From a bacterium (GTDB taxonomy: Bacteria; Vulcanimicrobiota; JABDET01): 64,000 bases of DNA. The position numbers were made by a program, and so were the translations under genes. The notes under the pieces were generated by a model, which was not told where the DNA came from, searched no databases, and saw only the letters and a list, made by a program, of their open reading frames with translations. Position 1 is the stretch's first letter. Every line of letters begins with the position of its first letter. The stretch spans positions 70,997 through 134,996 of the forward strand of contig JAJYZB010000002.1 in the NCBI GenBank assembly GCA_021800275.1, read 5' to 3'. Below are positions 7,757 through 49,268 of the stretch, piece after piece.

Positions 7757-9019
7757 ATGGACTGGCAGGATCGGGTCATAGATGGTATTATCCAAGCCCA
7801 GACCCTTGAACAGGCTTATCGAAATTTAGACAAAAAATTCCCTACCATTATTAAAGTAATACAGATCGCTCCCGAAGATCTTCCTGAAAATCCAGCTTCC
7901 ACGCAGCTTAAAAAAGTTTATTGGAAGCTGCCTGTTATTTCTGAACTTCTGTTCTCCAAACAGCGAAATCAAATTTGGAAAGGGAAAATTTCAACTGAAA
8001 ATTCAGCTCTTGCTGCAAAGCAGCTGTGGATCTTGCTGCATGCAGGATTTCCTGTGACTAAAGGATTAACTTTAATTGAACAAACTTCTGAGCCGCACCT
8101 TGGTTCAATCATAAAAGACATTCATCAAAACATCAAAAATGGGATTTCTTTTTCACAAGCAGTGGCAAAACATCCCAATCTTTTCCCACCTGTATGTCTG
8201 GCTATTATTCGCAGTGGAGAAACTTCGGGAAAATTAGAATACTGTTTCCAAGAGATTTCTGAACTTCTGGAAAAACAATTTGTTTTAAAGAAAAAGATTT
8301 GGGCGGCTCTGAGTTACCCTTTCACACTGACAGTGGTCAGTTCATTGATTTTATTCTTTTTTTTGGGGTATCTGCTGCCATCAGGAATGGCAGTTTATCA
8401 AAATTATCATTTTCAGCTGCCTCTTGCTACCAAATGCCTGCTAATCGTCATTTCTATCTTCCATTCCCAGCTTTTTAAAATCGCCATTTCAGCAGGAGCT
8501 GCTGTTTTTATTTTCCTGTATTTTTTCTTGTTTGGAACCGACATTTTTAAGAAAAAAATAGATCTGTGGCTTTTAAAAATTCCCGGGGTCAAAGATCTGA
8601 CTCTAAAAATCTGCATTCATCGTTCTCTATTCACTCTGGCATTTTTGATTGAAAATGGAATCTCAATTACGGAATCCTGCAATCTGGCAGCCGATGTCTC
8701 CGGAAACGCAATTTTTAGTAATAAATTTAAAACTATTGGCGAGCACATGAAAAAAGGGGAAGGAGTTCATGAATCATTTCGTTCCACTGACTTATTTACA
8801 AAACTAGCGCTGGATCTCATTGGAACAGGCGAATCTTCCGGAAAACTTCCTGAACTCTTAAAAAAAGCTTCTCAAATTTATGCACAGGAAGTGGATACTA
8901 AATTAGACACCCTGGTCAAACTCCTTGAACCCTGTTTTCTAGTAGGACTGTCTGGAATCGTTTTATTGATCGCTATTTCAGCTTTTATGCCAATGCTGAC
9001 CTTATCGCAGCATCTATGA
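7757..9019 (+). CDS. Type II secretion / type IV pilus inner-membrane platform protein (GspF/PilC family)
   Basis: 420 aa, two GspF-like repeats ('SGETSGKLEYCFQEISELLE', 'GTGESSGKLPELLKKASQIY') and TM segments. Confidence 0.8.
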   Translation: MDWQDRVIDGIIQAQTLEQAYRNLDKKFPTIIKVIQIAPEDLPENPASTQLKKVYWKLPVISELLFSKQRNQIWKGKISTENSALAAKQLWILLHAGFPVTKGLTLIEQTSEPHLGSIIKDIHQNIKNGISFSQAVAKHPNLFPPVCLAIIRSGETSGKLEYCFQEISELLEKQFVLKKKIWAALSYPFTLTVVSSLILFFFLGYLLPSGMAVYQNYHFQLPLATKCLLIVISIFHSQLFKIAISAGAAVFIFLYFFLFGTDIFKKKIDLWLLKIPGVKDLTLKICIHRSLFTLAFLIENGISITESCNLAADVSGNAIFSNKFKTIGEHMKKGEGVHESFRSTDLFTKLALDLIGTGESSGKLPELLKKASQIYAQEVDTKLDTLVKLLEPCFLVGLSGIVLLIAISAFMPMLTLSQHL

Positions 9020-13873: not shown

Positions 13874-14086
13874 ATCAAGGTGAACAAGCCGCCATGACTG
13901 AGCTCTTGTACTCCATTTAAACTTTCGTTAAACCACGCATCAAAAATTTTCGCAAACCTTGCCCCTCCTCTTTCTACCGTATTTCGAGATCCAAAATCTT
14001 TCTCATTCTATATTGACACAAAGGGCTTCAGTCAGTGTCATTTTATCATCCTCCAAGGGTGAGTCTGTGAAACCTTCCATGTGCTA

Positions 14087-14503
14087 TTAGCCCGTTTTAA
14101 GAGTAGGCTCAAGTTCCGGATTAATGGCTTTCATGAGTTGATTGAGCTTTTCGATAGTAGGAATACTTCTACCCTGCTCGTAGCGCGCGTATGCATTCGG
14201 AGATTTTGAATCAAGCCTGTGCGCCATCTCCAGCAAGGTCAGATTGTGCGCTTCCCTCTGCCGTTTCAACATCAGGGCGAATAGTGTCCCTTCCTGGTTG
14301 GCGCCAATTGTAAAGCTCGACCCTGCAGATGGCCGCACGTCCACCTTAAAATCTTTTCTGCCGATCAAGACTTTAATTGCATCGGCAATCATCCAGTACG
14401 CGCTCTTTTTTGATGTGGCTTGTGTCATGATGTCTAGCAGTGGAACTTCGATCAACCAATAGCCGCTTCTTCTGTCTTTCCAAACACGTCCTTCAAATCT
14501 CAT
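14087..14503 (-). CDS. hicB: HicB-family antitoxin with C-terminal XRE-type helix-turn-helix
   Basis: N-terminal 'SGYWLIEVPLLDIMTQATSKKSAYWMIADAIKVLI' HicB fold signature; C-terminal 'LTLLEMAHRLDSKSPNAYARYEQGRSIPTIEKLNQLMKAI' HTH; GGGAGA RBS. Confidence 0.75.
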   Translation of the reverse strand: MRFEGRVWKDRRSGYWLIEVPLLDIMTQATSKKSAYWMIADAIKVLIGRKDFKVDVRPSAGSSFTIGANQEGTLFALMLKRQREAHNLTLLEMAHRLDSKSPNAYARYEQGRSIPTIEKLNQLMKAINPELEPTLKTG

Positions 14504-14714
14504 ATTTTTCTCCCTTCACTCCTGGATGTGCCTGGGCTTTTCGAAGGATTTTTCGGGCCAAGGGCTCGGCAATCTCCCTGTGTCGAGGAACAGGCTCTGT
14601 TTCTTTTCCGTTCGTCCATATTTCGTGATTCCCGCCTTCTCACGACAACCACCATCCGAAGGAGCTCAAGCAGCTTTCCAGGTCACGCTTCTTCACTAAA
14701 ATAATTTTACACAT
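14493..14714 (-). pseudogene. hicA: HicA mRNA-interferase toxin gene interrupted by an in-frame TGA at codon 25
   Basis: Minus-strand translation 'MCKIILVKKRDLESCLSSFGWWLS*EGGNHEIWTNGKETEPVPRHREIAEPLARKILRKAQAHPGVKGEKYEI'; the stop is plus 14640-14642 (tca); the 3' end overlaps the hicB start by 11 nt. Confidence 0.65.
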
Positions 14715-14726
14715 AAATGTGTAAAA
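14705..14726. promoter_or_regulatory. Perfect 10 bp inverted repeat (TTTTACACAT-AA-ATGTGTAAAA) overlapping the hicA start codon; candidate HicB operator
   Basis: Read directly from sequence; the right half-site contains the hicA ATG. Confidence 0.4.
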
Positions 14727-14850
14727 AGTTAAGAGTCCGAATCGAGTCATATATAATCTTACCACGGAGAGCATTATCGCGTCATAAATTTTCCCCTTTA
14801 TGTCAATGGAAGCAGCCAGGTGTATAGGCGTTTACCATTCGTTAACCCAT

Positions 14851-15336
14851 CTAAATCTCTCTAAAAAGTTTCTTCACTCCCACTATAAGAACACCCACTT
14901 TCCTCTCCCATACCTCTACTTCATAAGATTGAAACACGTTTTTTTCTGCAGGAGCTGTCCACTTCTTATCTTTCTCAAAAGGATACTCTGTGTTTCTCTT
15001 AGTCCATTTATCAGATGGAGCAGTTTGTTCCATTTCAAACAAAAACTTTTTCATTTCCTTAGAAAATAAGCGAGAAATACTGCCGCGAAGTTTTGGTGAA
15101 GATTCTGCTGCCCTTAAAATGCCTTGTATAAAACCTTTGAGAGCATGTGATGGCTTTATTTCTCCTACTGCCTTCAAAAAAAGAGCTTTGACAGCTTTTT
15201 CGCTAGCCTGCTGACAGTGAGCAGCTCGATAGCAAAGAGGAGTCAAAGGAAGACTATTTTTAATCTCAGCGACAAACTGATAATCGAATTCAGCCTGTTT
15301 TAAGAAAGCGCTGCTTTTCTCGCTGCGGCTGTTCAT
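14851..15336 (-). CDS. HEPN-domain protein
   Basis: 'CYRAAHCQQASEKAVKALFLKAVGEIKPSHALKGF' matches the HEPN core (QQAxEKAxKA...H). Confidence 0.6.
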   Translation of the reverse strand: MNSRSEKSSAFLKQAEFDYQFVAEIKNSLPLTPLCYRAAHCQQASEKAVKALFLKAVGEIKPSHALKGFIQGILRAAESSPKLRGSISRLFSKEMKKFLFEMEQTAPSDKWTKRNTEYPFEKDKKWTAPAEKNVFQSYEVEVWERKVGVLIVGVKKLFREI

Positions 15337-15718
15337 CTTTATAAAGTCTAGAAATTAAATTTTTACACTCAGGATCTTGATATAAAATTTCAAACTGATC
15401 GCTTCTAATTTCCCTGATGATACTCCACTTTTCTTCCAGTGAACGATCAAAATCTTGCTTTGAGAGTAAAGAGAGTTTAAGCAGACCATGAAGAACTATA
15501 AAATCACTGGAGGAACCAAATGAAACATGATAAATTTCTTTTTCATTTGCGACGTTTGGAAACTGATCAAGCACTTCAAGCAAATAAACATTCTTTTTAT
15601 CATGAATTTTGTACCAGACAGCAGCAAGAAGGGGGCTGTCATCCAATCTTTTATGTCTCCTTATTAATTTCTTTAAATGCGTTTTTTGAAAATTATAAAA
15701 CGCGTTGTCATCTTGCAT
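15290..15718 (-). CDS. Hypothetical protein immediately upstream of and overlapping the HEPN gene (possible cognate partner)
   Basis: 142 aa, ATG start 21 nt after the upstream gene's stop; 47 nt overlap with the HEPN ORF; 'VSFGSSSDFIVL' only loosely resembles a nucleotidyltransferase motif. Confidence 0.35.
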   Translation of the reverse strand: MQDDNAFYNFQKTHLKKLIRRHKRLDDSPLLAAVWYKIHDKKNVYLLEVLDQFPNVANEKEIYHVSFGSSSDFIVLHGLLKLSLLSKQDFDRSLEEKWSIIREIRSDQFEILYQDPECKNLISRLYKDEQPQREKQRFLKTG

Positions 15719-20263: not shown

Positions 20264-22257
20264 TGCAGGTACTTATTTTAATTTCGCTGCTGATCCTTGG
20301 CACAGTCCCTCTGCTGATCCTGTTTTTCGCTGAAAACGAAAAGCTAATTCTTGCTGTTGGAACAATTGGAAATGGAGCTGCCTGCTGCATCGGTTTAACT
20401 GCAGCTCTTGGAGCTCTTATAACGGGAGAAACCTGCTCTTTAAAAGCAGTATGGTCACTTCCCTTGGGAAAAGTTGCCATTGGACTTGACCCTCTTTCCT
20501 CCTTTTTCCTGGTCTGTATTTTCCTGGTATCCGGGCTTTCAGTCCTGTATGGAAATGGATATTTTTCTTATGAGATAGGAAAAAAAAAGTTAAAGTCCCC
20601 TCTTATTTTTTCCAGCCTGTTAACAGCTTCTATGGTAGGAGTCGTCATTTCGCGAAATGGAATTTTATTCCTTATGTCATGGGAGATCATGTCTCTTTCC
20701 TCATTTTTCCTGGTCACCTTTGAAAATGAGCGCAGAGAGGTTCGCAGAGCAGGGATCTTATATCTCATGGCATCCCAGGCAGGGGCTCTTCTTCTTTTTG
20801 TCTTATTCGCTCTTTTAAACCGAAATTCAGGCAGCTTTAATTTTAATTCTTTTCACATTTCTTATGCGAAAATGCCGCGGACTGCTGATCTCTGTTTTTT
20901 ATTAGCGCTGCTTGGATTTGGGACAAAAGCAGGTTTCTGGCCTATTCATATTTGGCTGCCTGAAGCCCATCCAGCTGCTCCAAGCCCTGTTTCTGCTGTC
21001 ATGTCAGGGGTGATGATTAAAATGGGAATTTACGGAATTCTACGCACCCTTCTTTTTTTAGGAACTCCGCCGCTCTGGTGGGGAGGAGTGGTGCTTGGAA
21101 TAGGAGTAGTTTCAGGAATATTAGGAGTCCTGCATGCTTTAACAGAGCATGATCTAAAACGTCTTCTGGCCTATCACAGTGTTGAAAATATTGGAATTAT
21201 TACAATTGGGATTGGACTCGGTCTTTTAGGCAAGGCTTTAAATAACCCTGTCGTCACTTTTTTAGGATATGCTGGAGCCCTGCTGCACGTGCTGAATCAT
21301 GGAATTTTTAAAGGGCTGCTGTTCCACAGCGCTGGAAGTGTGATTCATGCAGCTGGAACAAGGAATATGGAAGAGCTTGGAGGATTGTACCGCTTTATGC
21401 CAGTAACAGGAAGCGCTTTTTTAGTTGGTTCTATCGCCATCTGCGGACTCCCCCCTTTCAATGGATTTATCAGTGAATGGCTGCTCTATATGGGAGGATT
21501 CATCGGTTCTTCTCATTTTTTTTCGACAGCAGGGGAGCTGCTCTGTCTAACTGCAGTACCAGCTTTAGCCCTGATTGGCGGGCTGGCAGTTACCTGTTTT
21601 GTAAAAGCTTTTGGGATCACTTTTCTCGGAAATCCCAGAGTCAATATCCCTGTTAAGATCCATGAATCCAATCACTCCATGCTGATCCCCATGATTCTAG
21701 GCTCTTTTCTGTGTGTTCTGATCGGCTGCTGGCCCCTTGGAATTCTCAATATCATCACTCCTGCTGCAGCAGTTTTAGGAGGGGGAGCTAGTGGCACAGC
21801 ATCTGTGCTGAAAACTCTTGCTAGAGTCCCTTACTTTGCAGCCCTGCTCTTTATTCTAATCCTTTTATTTTCCCTGCTGCGGTGGAAACTGCTTCAAAAT
21901 CGCGATGTCAGAACAGCTTCTACCTGGAGCTGTGGTTATACCACCTATCATACAAGAATGCAGTACACGGCTTCCTCTTTTGCTGAACCAATCCTCACCC
22001 CTTTTGCATCCTTAATCCATTCTCAGATACGGCATGGAAAAAAAGTGGATGGGTATTTTCCCGCTGAAGCCCGATATGAAAAACATTTAGGGGATATTGC
22101 TCATCAAAAATGGTTTCTCCCGTCTATTCGAAAAGCAGTCGGCTTTCTTTCGCAGCTTCGCATCCTGCAGCATGGGAAAGTCCAACTGTACCTTCTCTAT
22201 ATTGGTGGAGCTTTTGTCATGCTTTTAATATGGCTCTCCATCTGGGGAGGTCATTGA
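20263..22257 (+). CDS. Proton-pumping antiporter-like membrane subunit (HyfB / NuoL / MrpA family)
   Basis: 'WPIHIWLPEAHPAAPSPVSAVMSG' signature, many TM helices; ATG at 20263 overlaps the upstream stop. Confidence 0.8.
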   Translation: MQVLILISLLILGTVPLLILFFAENEKLILAVGTIGNGAACCIGLTAALGALITGETCSLKAVWSLPLGKVAIGLDPLSSFFLVCIFLVSGLSVLYGNGYFSYEIGKKKLKSPLIFSSLLTASMVGVVISRNGILFLMSWEIMSLSSFFLVTFENERREVRRAGILYLMASQAGALLLFVLFALLNRNSGSFNFNSFHISYAKMPRTADLCFLLALLGFGTKAGFWPIHIWLPEAHPAAPSPVSAVMSGVMIKMGIYGILRTLLFLGTPPLWWGGVVLGIGVVSGILGVLHALTEHDLKRLLAYHSVENIGIITIGIGLGLLGKALNNPVVTFLGYAGALLHVLNHGIFKGLLFHSAGSVIHAAGTRNMEELGGLYRFMPVTGSAFLVGSIAICGLPPFNGFISEWLLYMGGFIGSSHFFSTAGELLCLTAVPALALIGGLAVTCFVKAFGITFLGNPRVNIPVKIHESNHSMLIPMILGSFLCVLIGCWPLGILNIITPAAAVLGGGASGTASVLKTLARVPYFAALLFILILLFSLLRWKLLQNRDVRTASTWSCGYTTYHTRMQYTASSFAEPILTPFASLIHSQIRHGKKVDGYFPAEARYEKHLGDIAHQKWFLPSIRKAVGFLSQLRILQHGKVQLYLLYIGGAFVMLLIWLSIWGGH

Positions 22258-46545: not shown

Positions 46546-47460
46546 ATGAACGTGCGAAAAATAATTCTGCTGCTGAACATCTATCTGTTTTTATCGCTCA
46601 CCGCTTTTGCCTCTACATACTGGCATTATGCGGGATATGACATTTCCCCAGATGGTCTGATGCTCTCAAACTGGACAATCTCTGGACCTGCCGGTGGACC
46701 TAATCCAAGGTTATCCCATCCTCTTGGGAAAGCCATTTACGCGACTTTTACCCTGACCAATGTCAGCGATCAACCCATTCTTCTAACGAAAATTTATGTG
46801 GCATGTCATTATACGGGAAAGGCTCAAAAAATTCAAGCAGAACAAAAAGAAGATTTCGGCTTTCTTCAAAATGTAAGATTGAACCCTGGAGAATCTAAAA
46901 CTTTAACAGCGAGCTTTCCTTTAAACAAAACAGGAAATTGGAGACTCTGGCCTGCCTACAGGATTGGAAAAATTAAAAGCCACATCAGGTGGCATGATGT
47001 GATTTTAAGAGTCAGCAGAAGAGCTCTAGGTTTATTAGGCGGGATTCAATATTACAGAGGACCTGAAATAGTAAAAAGAGATGGACTCGAAGTGACAAAC
47101 TTCAAGTTGCATACCGTCAAAAATCCAAAAGTTGGAGATTATGCTGTTGTTGATTTTGACATTACCAATACAACCCAATATCGAATTTCTCTCAGCCCAA
47201 ATGGACTTTTTGTGTCTGCCAGAGACAATTATCCAACCGTGATTAAAAATTTTGGATTTAAATCCATTGTTCTTTCTCCCGGGCAAAGCGCCCATGTTCA
47301 TGCTGCCAGAGTGATGGATGGGAAAGGATTGTGGATGTTCTGGGCAGGCTACCAGATTAAGAAAGGCAAAAACACCTATTTTGGCAGAACAGTGACAACG
47401 ACTGGAGATATTTCACCTTTTAAATGGCATGATTTAGATGTGATTGTTCACGGCCACTAA
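46546..47460 (+). CDS. Secreted hypothetical protein built from two homologous domains
   Basis: ATG at 46546 gives a signal-peptide-like '[23 protein letters not shown]'; the two halves end in similar 'W..WPAYRIGK...WHDVIL' and '[11 protein letters not shown]...WHDLDVIV' segments. Confidence 0.5.
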
Positions 47461-47471
47461 GGGCTTGCTCA

Positions 47472-49268
47472 ATGCCCTCACGACAATCTCTAATCCGCAA
47501 TTTTTCTATTATTGCTCATATTGATCACGGAAAAAGCACGCTGGCTGACCGCCTTCTTGAAATCACTGGTTCCATCTCAAAGCGAGAAATGCAGGATCAA
47601 ATTTTAGACAGCCATCCTCTTGAAAAAGAAAGAGGAATTACAATCAAAGCTCACCCTGTTCAGCTGCATTACAAAGCTAAAAATGGATCTATTTATACCC
47701 TCCACCTTATTGATACTCCTGGCCATGTAGATTTCAATTATGAAGTTTCTCGATCTCTAGCAGCCTGCGAAGGAGCTCTTCTGGTGGTGGATGGAACTCA
47801 AGGAGTAGAAGCCCAGACTCTTGCCAATTATCTCCTGGCTGTTGAAAACATGCTGACCATTATCCCTGTCATCAATAAAATTGACCTGCCAACCGCTGAA
47901 CCCGATCGAGTTGAAAAAGAACTAAACGAACATCTTCTTCTAGAACCCTCAAAAATTTTAAAAGTAAGTGCAAAACAGGGAACTGGAATTGACGAAATCC
48001 TGGAGATGATTGTTGAAAAAATCAAACCCCCGGCAGGGAGCCCTGAATCCCCTCTCCGCGCTCTAATTTTTGACTCACATTATAACGCTTATCGTGGAGT
48101 CGTTGTGTCAGTCCGTGTGGTAGATGGAATTCTTAAAGCGCAGCAGAGGATCAAGATGATCTCAACTGAAAAAGAATATATTGTTGAAGAAGTAGGCGTT
48201 TTTACTCCTGAAATGAAACCCGTTGAACAAATTGAAGCTGGGGAAGTCGGTTATGTGATCGCCGGCATAAAAACAATCAGTGACACGCAGGTAGGAGACA
48301 CATTGACACATGCTGAACGCCCTGCCCTTCAGCCTCTTCCAGGGTATCGCAAAGTCACCCCAATGGTTTACTGCGGGTTTTATCCAATCGAAAATTCAGA
48401 TTATCTCTCTTTAAAAGATGCGCTCGAAAAACTAAAACTAAATGACTCCTCTTTATTTTATGAACCAGAAACATCGGCCGCTTTAGGATTTGGATTTAGA
48501 TGCGGATTTTTAGGGCTTCTCCACATGGAAATCATTCAAGAACGGCTGGAAAGAGAATACACCTTAACCCTTTTATCCACTGCTCCTAATGTGGTCTATC
48601 ACATTAAAACAGGCGACGGGAAAAACCATGTTATTCATAATCCGGCTGACTGGCCTGATGGAAAAATTGAAATAGTTGAAGAGCCATTTGTAAAAGCCAT
48701 CCTTTTTACTCCTGAAGAATATGTTGGATCTCTGATGGACATCTGTCAAATGAAGAGAGGAATTTACCAGCATCTGGAATATCTATCTCCTGGAAAAGTG
48801 GAGCTCCAGTATGAGCTTCCTCTTGCAGAAGTGATTACTGATTTCTATGATCAACTAAAAAGCAGAAGCCATGGTTACGCCTCTATTGATTATGAATTCT
48901 CAGGATACAAAGCTTCTGATCTGGTTAAACTTGAAATTTTGATCGCTGAAGAGGTTGTGGATGCTTTAAGTTATATTATCCATAGAGATAATGCCCAGCA
49001 GTTAGGGCGTTCTCTGGCAAATAAATTAAGAGAAGTGATTCCCAGGCAGTGGTTCGATGTCCCTATTCAAGCTGCGATTGGCGGCAAAATCATCGCTAGA
49101 GAAAATATAAAAGCGATGAGGAAAAATGTGCTTGCCAAATGTTATGGAGGAGACATAACCCGGAAAAGAAAGCTTCTAGAAAAACAAAAAGAGGGAAAGA
49201 AAAGAATGAAACAGTTAGGTAAAGTTGAAATTCCTCAAGAAGCCTTCTGGGCAATCCTAAAATTATGA
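47472..49268 (+). CDS. lepA: Translation elongation factor 4 (LepA)
   Basis: '[20 protein letters not shown]' G1 motif, 'DTPGHVDF', full-length 598 aa. Confidence 0.95.

What the first reader, a model, noticed from the sequence alone, without database searches (positions are those of the whole stretch)
14493..14714. hicA toxin gene carries a single in-frame TGA while hicB is intact
The minus-strand frame is an unmistakable HicA ('...GWWLS * EGGNHEIW...PVPRHREIAEPLARKILRKA') with one TGA exactly where HicA proteins have a residue, and its 3' end overlaps hicB as in functional operons. TGA is a genuine stop elsewhere in the window (for example at 9017-9019 and 22255-22257), so genome-wide recoding is unlikely. 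The likeliest readings are a recent nonsense mutation leaving an orphan HicB-HTH regulator, a sequencing error, or low-level readthrough.
Basis: seen in the sequence. Interest (0 to 1): 0.55.

Follow-up and report, generated by a model that had tools for sequence, protein, structure and literature searches.

The report
Toxin gene hicA killed by nonsense mutation
A small toxin gene (hicA) of a toxin-antitoxin pair has been knocked out by a single C-to-T change that made a stop codon, while its antitoxin/repressor partner (hicB) stays whole; this is the ordinary, well-documented way such gene pairs decay.

Summary
On the minus strand there is a HicA-family gene (true start GTG 14696, natural stop 14495-14493) with one in-frame TGA at 14642-14640 (codon 19). 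It overlaps by 11 nt a full-length 138-aa hicB.

- **Origin of the stop.** Homologues have a near-invariant Arg at this position. The closest relative locus (88% aa identity) has CGA there, so the stop is a single C>T transition.
- **Not an assembly error.** The same TGA is in four metagenome contigs from four different samples.
- **Not recoding.** TGA ends 19 of 50 long ORFs in the window, including lepA at its conserved C-terminus. There is no SECIS-like structure or Rfam hit.
- **Effect on the toxin.** The stop lies 5 codons before the invariant His, so only an 18-residue peptide is made.
- **Timing.** Nothing else in hicA is damaged, and dN/dS is 0.24 against 0.18 for hicB, so the event looks recent.
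- **What stays intact.** hicB keeps its own Shine-Dalgarno sequence. A perfect 22-bp palindromic operator sits inside a sigma-70-like promoter.
- **How common this is.** Among 79 related loci from other species, 21 carry a visibly wrecked hicA beside a full-length hicB. One has TGA at the same codon.

Verdict: an ordinary toxin-first decay of a class-3 hicAB module. Low interest.

The parts
14493..14696 (-). hicA pseudogene (67 codons plus stop; GTG start; class-3 HicA toxin)
   Evidence: Pfam HicA_toxin 34.3 bits; 88% aa identity to P0001; start defined by the alignment with homologues and with E. coli HicA 6hpb_A.
14640..14642 (-). premature TGA at codon 19, replacing Arg (CGA in the nearest relative)
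   Evidence: Identical in L001-L004.
14625..14627 (-). CAC codon for the invariant His24 (aligned with His23 of E. coli HicA), 5 codons downstream of the premature stop
   Evidence: Invariant column H in alignment A2; aligned to GSNH of 6hpb_A. Its catalytic role is from prior knowledge of HicA.
14087..14503 (-). hicB antitoxin/autorepressor, intact, 138 aa (N-terminal partial RNase H fold plus C-terminal Xre-type HTH)
   Evidence: Pfam HTH_3 39.2 bits; homologues almost all 138 aa; AF2 model pLDDT 91.4; best full-length PDB fold matches are E. coli HicB 6u0i and 6hpb_B, and the N-domain matches 2yzt.
14510..14516 (-). Shine-Dalgarno-like AAGGGAG, 6 nt before the hicB ATG
   Evidence: Read directly from the sequence; conserved in L005 and L008.
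14705..14726 (.). perfect 10+10 inverted repeat TTTTACACAT-TT-ATGTGTAAAA, the putative HicB operator (hicO-like)
   Evidence: An ACAC-N4-8-GTGT palindrome lies within 100 nt upstream of hicA in 36 of 44 scored intact related loci.
14704..14732 (-). sigma-70-like promoter TTAACT-17 nt-TAAAAT; the -10 ends 7 nt before the GTG start
   Evidence: conserved as TTGACT-17-TAAAAT in L005 and as TTGACT-17-TAAACT in L009.

Best explanation
This is a class-3 hicAB toxin-antitoxin module (HicA RNase toxin, HicB antitoxin with a C-terminal HTH) whose toxin gene was recently inactivated by one C>T transition. The change turned Arg19 (CGA) into TGA. Translation from the GTG start ends after 18 residues (helix 1 only), before the invariant His24, the beta-sheet and the C-terminal helix, so no active toxin is made. 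No in-frame start codon follows before codon 46, so re-initiation cannot rescue it. hicB is intact, has its own Shine-Dalgarno sequence, and sits behind an intact promoter that carries a perfect palindromic operator. It is therefore inferred to still be made and to repress its own promoter as an orphan antitoxin/regulator. This is the first step of the usual two-step decay of chromosomal TA modules: the toxin goes first, because losing the antitoxin first would be lethal. Shown here: the mutation, its ancestral state, its presence in several assemblies, the standard genetic code, the intactness of hicB and of the operator, and the frequency of the same fate in relatives. Inferred: loss of toxicity, continued HicB expression and autorepression.
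For: HicA identity. Ancestral CGA in the nearest relative, whose cassette is about 89% identical in DNA. Arg is near-invariant at that column, and 13 of 14 further metagenome loci have Arg codons there and one has Lys. The identical TGA is in contigs from four samples, with 0-1 SNP over up to 6.4 kb. No intact allele closer than 88% exists among 5.8 billion protein clusters. TGA terminates 19 of 50 long ORFs, and lepA ends at TGA exactly at the end of the LepA_C profile. No tRNA or Rfam hit, no SECIS at E<=10, and the downstream fold has z = -0.10. hicA dN/dS is 0.24 against 0.18 for hicB, all invariant residues downstream of the stop are retained and there are no indels. hicB fold and length. 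Operator and promoter. The same fate in relatives: of 79 assessable HicB-homologue loci, 51 have intact hicA, 4 premature nonsense (L018 has TGA at the same codon), 5 frameshift, 12 deletion remnants and 7 no trace, and all 21 wrecked loci keep a full-length hicB. Frameshifted hicA fused to hicB also occurs in metagenome proteins P0234 and P0258. Literature: toxin-only pseudogenes far outnumber antitoxin-only ones (185 vs 8) and a two-step decay model is proposed in PMC13617665; TA decay by nonsense mutations is described in PMC7167474.
Against: The reading frame after the stop is perfectly preserved, which recency explains but which would also fit continued selection through readthrough. The four contigs are near-clonal, so they show that the TGA is real but not that it has persisted for long. 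Loss of toxicity and HicB expression were not measured. The rest of the genome, where a suppressor tRNA or other hicA paralogues might lie, is not visible from this window.
Confidence: 0.9

Rival explanations
1. Leaky stop. The UGA is read through at low frequency by a near-cognate tRNA, for example tRNA-Trp. A trickle of full-length HicA is still made and the module stays functional but attenuated, possibly under selection.
For: The 48 codons after the stop are undamaged and keep every invariant residue. An unrelated Acidobacteriota locus (L018) has TGA at the same codon. UGA is generally the leakiest bacterial stop codon (prior knowledge).
Against: Recency explains the intact downstream frame, and dN/dS cannot separate the two readings. 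The coincidence with L018 is expected. The intact relative's hicA has only 6 codons that one transition can turn into a stop, and CGA19 is one of them. The other three nonsense cases hit other codons, and they sit among frameshifts and deletions that cannot be read through. TGA is not conserved at this codon: 14 of 14 further loci have sense codons. There is no stimulatory structure downstream. The +4 base is G, which as I recall is not the weakest termination context.
Confidence: 0.05
2. Sequencing or assembly error. The true codon is CGA and the gene is intact.
For: Single-base errors do occur in metagenome assemblies.
Against: The region is identical over 421 nt, TGA included, in contigs assembled from four different samples (JGI 3300039716; ENA ERZ27237044, ERZ27237364, ERZ27236928). 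One of them differs from the window by a synonymous SNP elsewhere, so it is not the same assembly. No gene caller called hicA in any of them.
Confidence: 0.01
3. Recoding. UGA encodes selenocysteine here, or is a sense codon in this organism (code 4 or 25).
For: None beyond the in-frame TGA itself.
Against: TGA ends 19 of 50 long ORFs, and lepA ends with TGA at its conserved C-terminus. Homologues have Arg at this position, never Cys or Sec. The 81 nt around and after the UGA fold no better than shuffles (z = -0.10). No SECIS or other Rfam family was found even at E<=10. The downstream DNA is almost the same in the relative that has CGA.
Confidence: 0.005

Closest known systems
E. coli K-12 hicAB (class 3 of Gerdes 2024, PMC10865869; structure 6HPB)
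   Same: Gene order hicA then hicB. HicA is small (58 aa in E. coli, 67 codons here) with the G-x-N-H and P-R-H motifs. HicB is 138 aa, with an N-terminal partial RNase H fold and a C-terminal HTH. A palindromic operator lies in the promoter. In E. coli the operator-controlled P2 transcript yields HicB but not HicA. Here the only recognisable promoter also puts the transcription start at or next to the hicA start codon.
   Different: Sequence identity is low: about 14% for HicB by structural alignment, and the HicA profile match is only E 0.55. Arg19 of this subfamily corresponds to Ala in E. coli HicA. Above all, the toxin gene here carries a premature stop.
hicAB of Candidatus Eremiobacteraeota MAGs GCA_023381495.1 and GCA_023475635.1 (L005, L006)
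   Same: Same cassette: HicA 88% and HicB 86% aa identity, the same 11-nt overlap, and the same promoter/operator and GTG start.
   Different: hicA is intact there (CGA at codon 19). The genomic neighbourhood is different (mer-like operon, cytidylate kinase), so the cassette is mobile or was acquired independently.
Eroded chromosomal TA modules (ccdO157 in E. coli, Mine et al. 2009; Photorhabdus TA repertoire, PMC13617665)
   Same: The toxin is inactivated by a point mutation, truncation or deletion while the antitoxin is retained. This is the first step of a two-step decay.
   Different: Those studies cover other organisms and mostly other TA families. Here the same pattern is seen for one HicB-HTH clade across many phyla of uncultured bacteria.

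Membership tests
HicA toxin (Pfam PF07927) | Sequence matches the HicA_toxin profile above the curated threshold | tested here: met
   34.3 bits against a cut-off of 27, profile positions 2-57 of 58, with the stop masked.
HicA toxin (Pfam PF07927) | Uninterrupted ORF encoding the whole alpha-beta-beta-beta-alpha dsRBD-like domain, including the conserved His | tested here: not met
   TGA at codon 19, five codons before His24. It is therefore a HicA pseudogene, not a functional member.
HicA toxin (Pfam PF07927) | Paired with an adjacent hicB in one operon | tested here: met
   hicB starts 11 nt before the hicA stop on the same strand. The arrangement is the same in L005.
HicA toxin (Pfam PF07927) | RNase activity and growth inhibition that HicB neutralises | not testable with these tools
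   Needs a kill/rescue assay.
HicB antitoxin, class 3 (HTH type) | N-terminal partial RNase H fold (beta-beta-beta-alpha-beta...) | tested here: met
   The AF2 model (pLDDT 91.4) has E3-9, E16-20, E25-29, H32-47, E54-58, E63-68. Foldseek top hits are 6u0i_A and 6hpb_B (E. coli HicB, full length), and 2yzt matches the N-domain with TMt 0.69. No Pfam HicB model hit at E<=0.1.
HicB antitoxin, class 3 (HTH type) | C-terminal helix-turn-helix DNA-binding domain | tested here: met
   HTH_3 39.2 bits, residues 79-128; Xre-type fold matches.
HicB antitoxin, class 3 (HTH type) | Palindromic operator in the hicAB promoter, bound by HicB | tested here: inconclusive
   A perfect 10+10 palindrome lies inside the promoter and is conserved across the clade (36 of 44 scored loci). 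Binding itself was not testable.
Bacterial selenoprotein gene | SECIS hairpin just downstream of the UGA, and Cys or Sec at the homologous position | tested here: not met
   Fold z = -0.10; no Rfam hit at E<=10; homologues have Arg.
UGA-sense genetic codes (table 4 or 25) | TGA is not used as a terminator | tested here: not met
   19 of 50 long ORFs end in TGA. lepA ends in TGA at the end of the LepA_C profile.

The most novel reading that the evidence does not exclude
The UGA at Arg19 is a tolerated leaky stop that throttles HicA synthesis to a trickle. The module would then be kept as an attenuated, conditionally active toxin (for example, active when termination efficiency drops under stress or phage infection) rather than as a dead gene. 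The same TGA at the same codon in an unrelated Acidobacteriota locus (L018) would then be convergence.
Probability: 0.04. Interest if true: 0.55.

Novelty: new member of a known kind. Interest (0 to 1): 0.12.

Why it matters
It matters little by itself. It is a textbook example of toxin-first erosion of a chromosomal toxin-antitoxin module, useful mainly so that annotators label it as a hicA pseudogene beside an orphan hicB.

The by-products are modestly useful. In one widespread HicB-HTH clade, about a quarter of species-representative genomes (21 of 79) carry a wrecked hicA beside a full-length hicB, which extends the toxin-first decay pattern to many uncultured phyla. The clade also shares a conserved operator/promoter layout that places the hicA start codon at the predicted transcript 5' end.

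Tried and rejected
- An exact 45-mer scan of metagenome contigs for CGA or TGA alleles of this lineage found nothing. That collection does not hold the source contigs.
- The genome-contig scan found no representative of the window's own species; the best HicB hit was 85%.
- A PDB sequence search with the single HicA sequence found no HicA. The profile search reached E. coli HicA only at E 0.55.
- NCBIfam and PADLOC gave no HicA or HicB family hit.
- The LepA search did not name the organism. The closest named relatives are about 65% identical Bacillota, and closer hits are unnamed metagenome proteins.
- My automatic 'nonsense' class first over-counted, because natural stops at profile positions 57-61 were included. 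I corrected it by hand.
- Re-initiation after the stop was considered and rejected, because no in-frame ATG, GTG or TTG occurs before codon 46.
- The overlapping 51-aa ORF 14500-14655 in another frame was considered and dismissed as the alternative frame of conserved hicA DNA. The same ORF appears in L008.

Full report
**Observation**

The minus strand of 14493-14714 translates to MCKIILVKKRDLESCLSSFGWWLS*EGGNHEIWTNGKETEPVPRHREIAEPLARKILRKAQAHPGVKGEKYEI*.
- With the stop masked, the sequence passes Pfam HicA_toxin (34.3 bits, cut-off 27). It is 88% identical to an annotated HicA (P0001).
- Homologues start at MKKRDLE.
- The premature TGA is codon 19 (14642-14640). The natural stop is TGA 14495-14493.
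- hicB runs from ATG 14503 to stop codon TAA 14089-14087. It is 138 aa and overlaps hicA by 11 nt.

**What the stop replaced**

- In an alignment of 24 homologues the column is near-invariant Arg.
- The closest locus comes from two 'Candidatus Eremiobacteraeota' MAGs (L005, L006). It carries the same cassette, about 89% identical in DNA, with the same overlap, promoter and GTG start. It reads CGA where the window reads TGA. One C>T transition explains the stop.
- In that intact relative only six hicA codons can become stops by a transition, and CGA19 is one of them.
- Fourteen further metagenome loci sharing the WW..EGGNHEIWTNG motif all have sense codons at this position: AGA 9, AGG 3, CGA 1, AAA 1. 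TGA is not a conserved feature, and most relatives use Arg codons that cannot mutate to a stop in one step.

**Not an error and not recoding**

- HicB of exactly this sequence was found on 8 contigs. The four that were shown come from four samples (one JGI, three ENA). All four have no called hicA gene and the identical TGA.
- Those four differ from the window by 0-1 SNP over up to 6.4 kb. The one SNP is at 14180 and is synonymous in hicB. The allele is therefore real, but the population is near-clonal.
- No intact HicA closer than 88% exists in the 5.8-billion-cluster protein collection.
- TGA ends 19 of 50 ORFs of 150 aa or more in the window. One of these is lepA, whose TGA falls exactly at the end of the LepA_C profile.
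- The window holds no tRNA gene and no Rfam family.
- A permissive Rfam search of 14000-14900 found nothing SECIS-like. The RNA around and after the UGA folds no better than shuffles (z = -0.10).

**Consequence for the toxin**

- The product ends after 18 residues. That is before the invariant His24, which aligns with the GSNH His of E. coli HicA 6hpb_A, and before the invariant W-T-N-G and P-R-H motifs.
- No in-frame start codon occurs before codon 46, so re-initiation cannot restore a toxin.
- The catalytic role of that His is prior knowledge of HicA toxins and was not tested here.

**Age of the mutation**

- Against L005, hicA has 19 differences (dN/dS 0.24) and hicB has 51 (dN/dS 0.18).
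- hicA has no indels and no second stop. Every invariant residue downstream of the stop is retained.
- Most divergence therefore accrued under purifying selection, and the nonsense mutation is recent. The power of this test is low, and it cannot separate recency from continued selection via readthrough.

**hicB and the control region are intact**

- Nearly all listed HicB homologues are 138 aa.
- An AlphaFold2 model built with a 30-sequence alignment has pLDDT 91.4. [quoted passage not shown]
- The best full-length PDB fold matches are E. coli HicB (6u0i, 6hpb_B). The N-domain matches T. thermophilus 2yzt, and the C-domain matches Xre-type repressors. Pfam finds HTH_3 at residues 79-128.
- This is class 3 of the hicAB classification in PMC10865869.
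- hicB has its own AAGGGAG 6 nt before the ATG, so its translation need not depend on hicA translation.
- Upstream of hicA, a sigma-70-like promoter (TTAACT 14732-14727, 17-nt spacer, TAAAAT 14709-14704) encloses a perfect 10+10 palindrome at 14705-14726.
- An ACAC-N4-8-GTGT palindrome lies within 100 nt upstream of hicA in 36 of the 44 intact related loci scored. My rough estimate of the chance expectation is below 1% per locus. I read this as the HicB operator. Binding was not tested.

**How common this fate is**

A genome-contig scan with HicB returned 80 loci from species-representative genomes of many phyla. I classified the region upstream of hicB with tblastn, an HMM on six-frame translations and inspection by eye. 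Of 79 assessable loci:

| State of hicA | Loci | Examples |
|---|---|---|
| Intact | 51 | |
| Premature nonsense | 4 | L018 TGA at the same Arg codon; L069 TAG; L072 TAG at Trp27; L073 TGA |
| Frameshift | 5 | L030, L059, L074, L077, L085 |
| Deletion remnant | 12 | L009 keeps promoter, operator and 12 codons of hicA directly before hicB; L008 lost the promoter and first 9 codons |
| No trace | 7 | |

- All 21 wrecked loci keep a full-length hicB.
- Metagenome proteins P0234 and P0258 (203 aa) are frameshifted hicA read into hicB.
- The set is HicB-anchored, so it cannot measure hicB-first loss.
- The pattern agrees with published work. Toxin-only pseudogenes (185) far outnumber antitoxin-only ones (8), and a two-step decay is proposed, in PMC13617665. 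Decay of TA systems by nonsense mutations is described in PMC7167474.

**The coincidence with L018**

L018 has the same codon and the same TGA. This is expected under mutation alone, because few codons are one transition away from a stop.

**Conclusion**

- This is a recently pseudogenised hicA in a class-3 hicAB module, leaving an apparently functional orphan HicB with its operator.
- Readthrough at a low level cannot be excluded from sequence, but nothing supports it.
- The case is ordinary.

Noticed in passing
window 14694-14732 (minus strand); also L005, L007, L009, L010, L012, L014, L017 upstream of hicA: The -10 hexamer ends only about 7 nt before the hicA start codon (GTG, ATG or TTG) and no Shine-Dalgarno sequence lies between them. 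The operator-controlled transcript would therefore be leaderless or nearly so for hicA. This recalls the E. coli P2 transcript, which yields HicB but not HicA (PMC10865869). The layout is conserved across the clade.
   Followed up: partly
L008-L087 (80 loci from genome contigs): 21 of 79 assessable loci of this HicB-HTH clade carry a visibly inactivated hicA (4 nonsense, 5 frameshift, 12 deletion remnants) beside a full-length hicB. Several deletion remnants keep the promoter and operator (L009, L026, L048, L050, L079).
   Followed up: yes
window 14851-15336 and 15290-15718 (minus strand): Directly upstream of hicAB lies a HEPN-domain gene (161 aa; Pfam HEPN 28.2 bits). A 142-aa gene with no hit above threshold in Pfam and none in NCBIfam or PADLOC overlaps it by 47 nt. 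This may be a second toxin-antitoxin-like pair with an unrecognised partner.
   Followed up: partly
proteins P0234 and P0258 (203 aa), P0231, P0223: Metagenome 'HicB' proteins with N-terminal extensions are frameshifted or alternative-frame hicA remnants fused in frame to hicB. They could be mistaken for fused class-11 HicAB proteins.
   Followed up: partly
L008 3700-4011 versus L005 3895-4204: L008 (MAG YP4.bin17) shares the neighbourhood of L005 and a nearly identical cassette. Its promoter, operator and first 9 hicA codons are replaced by unrelated sequence, leaving a 63-aa TTG-start ORF. This is an independent, different way of disabling or silencing the same hicA.
   Followed up: partly
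window 14180: The only difference between the window and the JGI contig L001 over 6.4 kb is a synonymous G/A SNP inside hicB.
   Followed up: yes
window 47433-49268 (lepA): LepA is at most about 66% identical to any named organism (Bacillota). It is 75-90% identical only to unnamed metagenome proteins. The window therefore comes from a deep, uncultured lineage that was not identified here. The hicAB cassette sits in a different neighbourhood from its closest relative, which suggests the cassette is mobile.
   Followed up: partly
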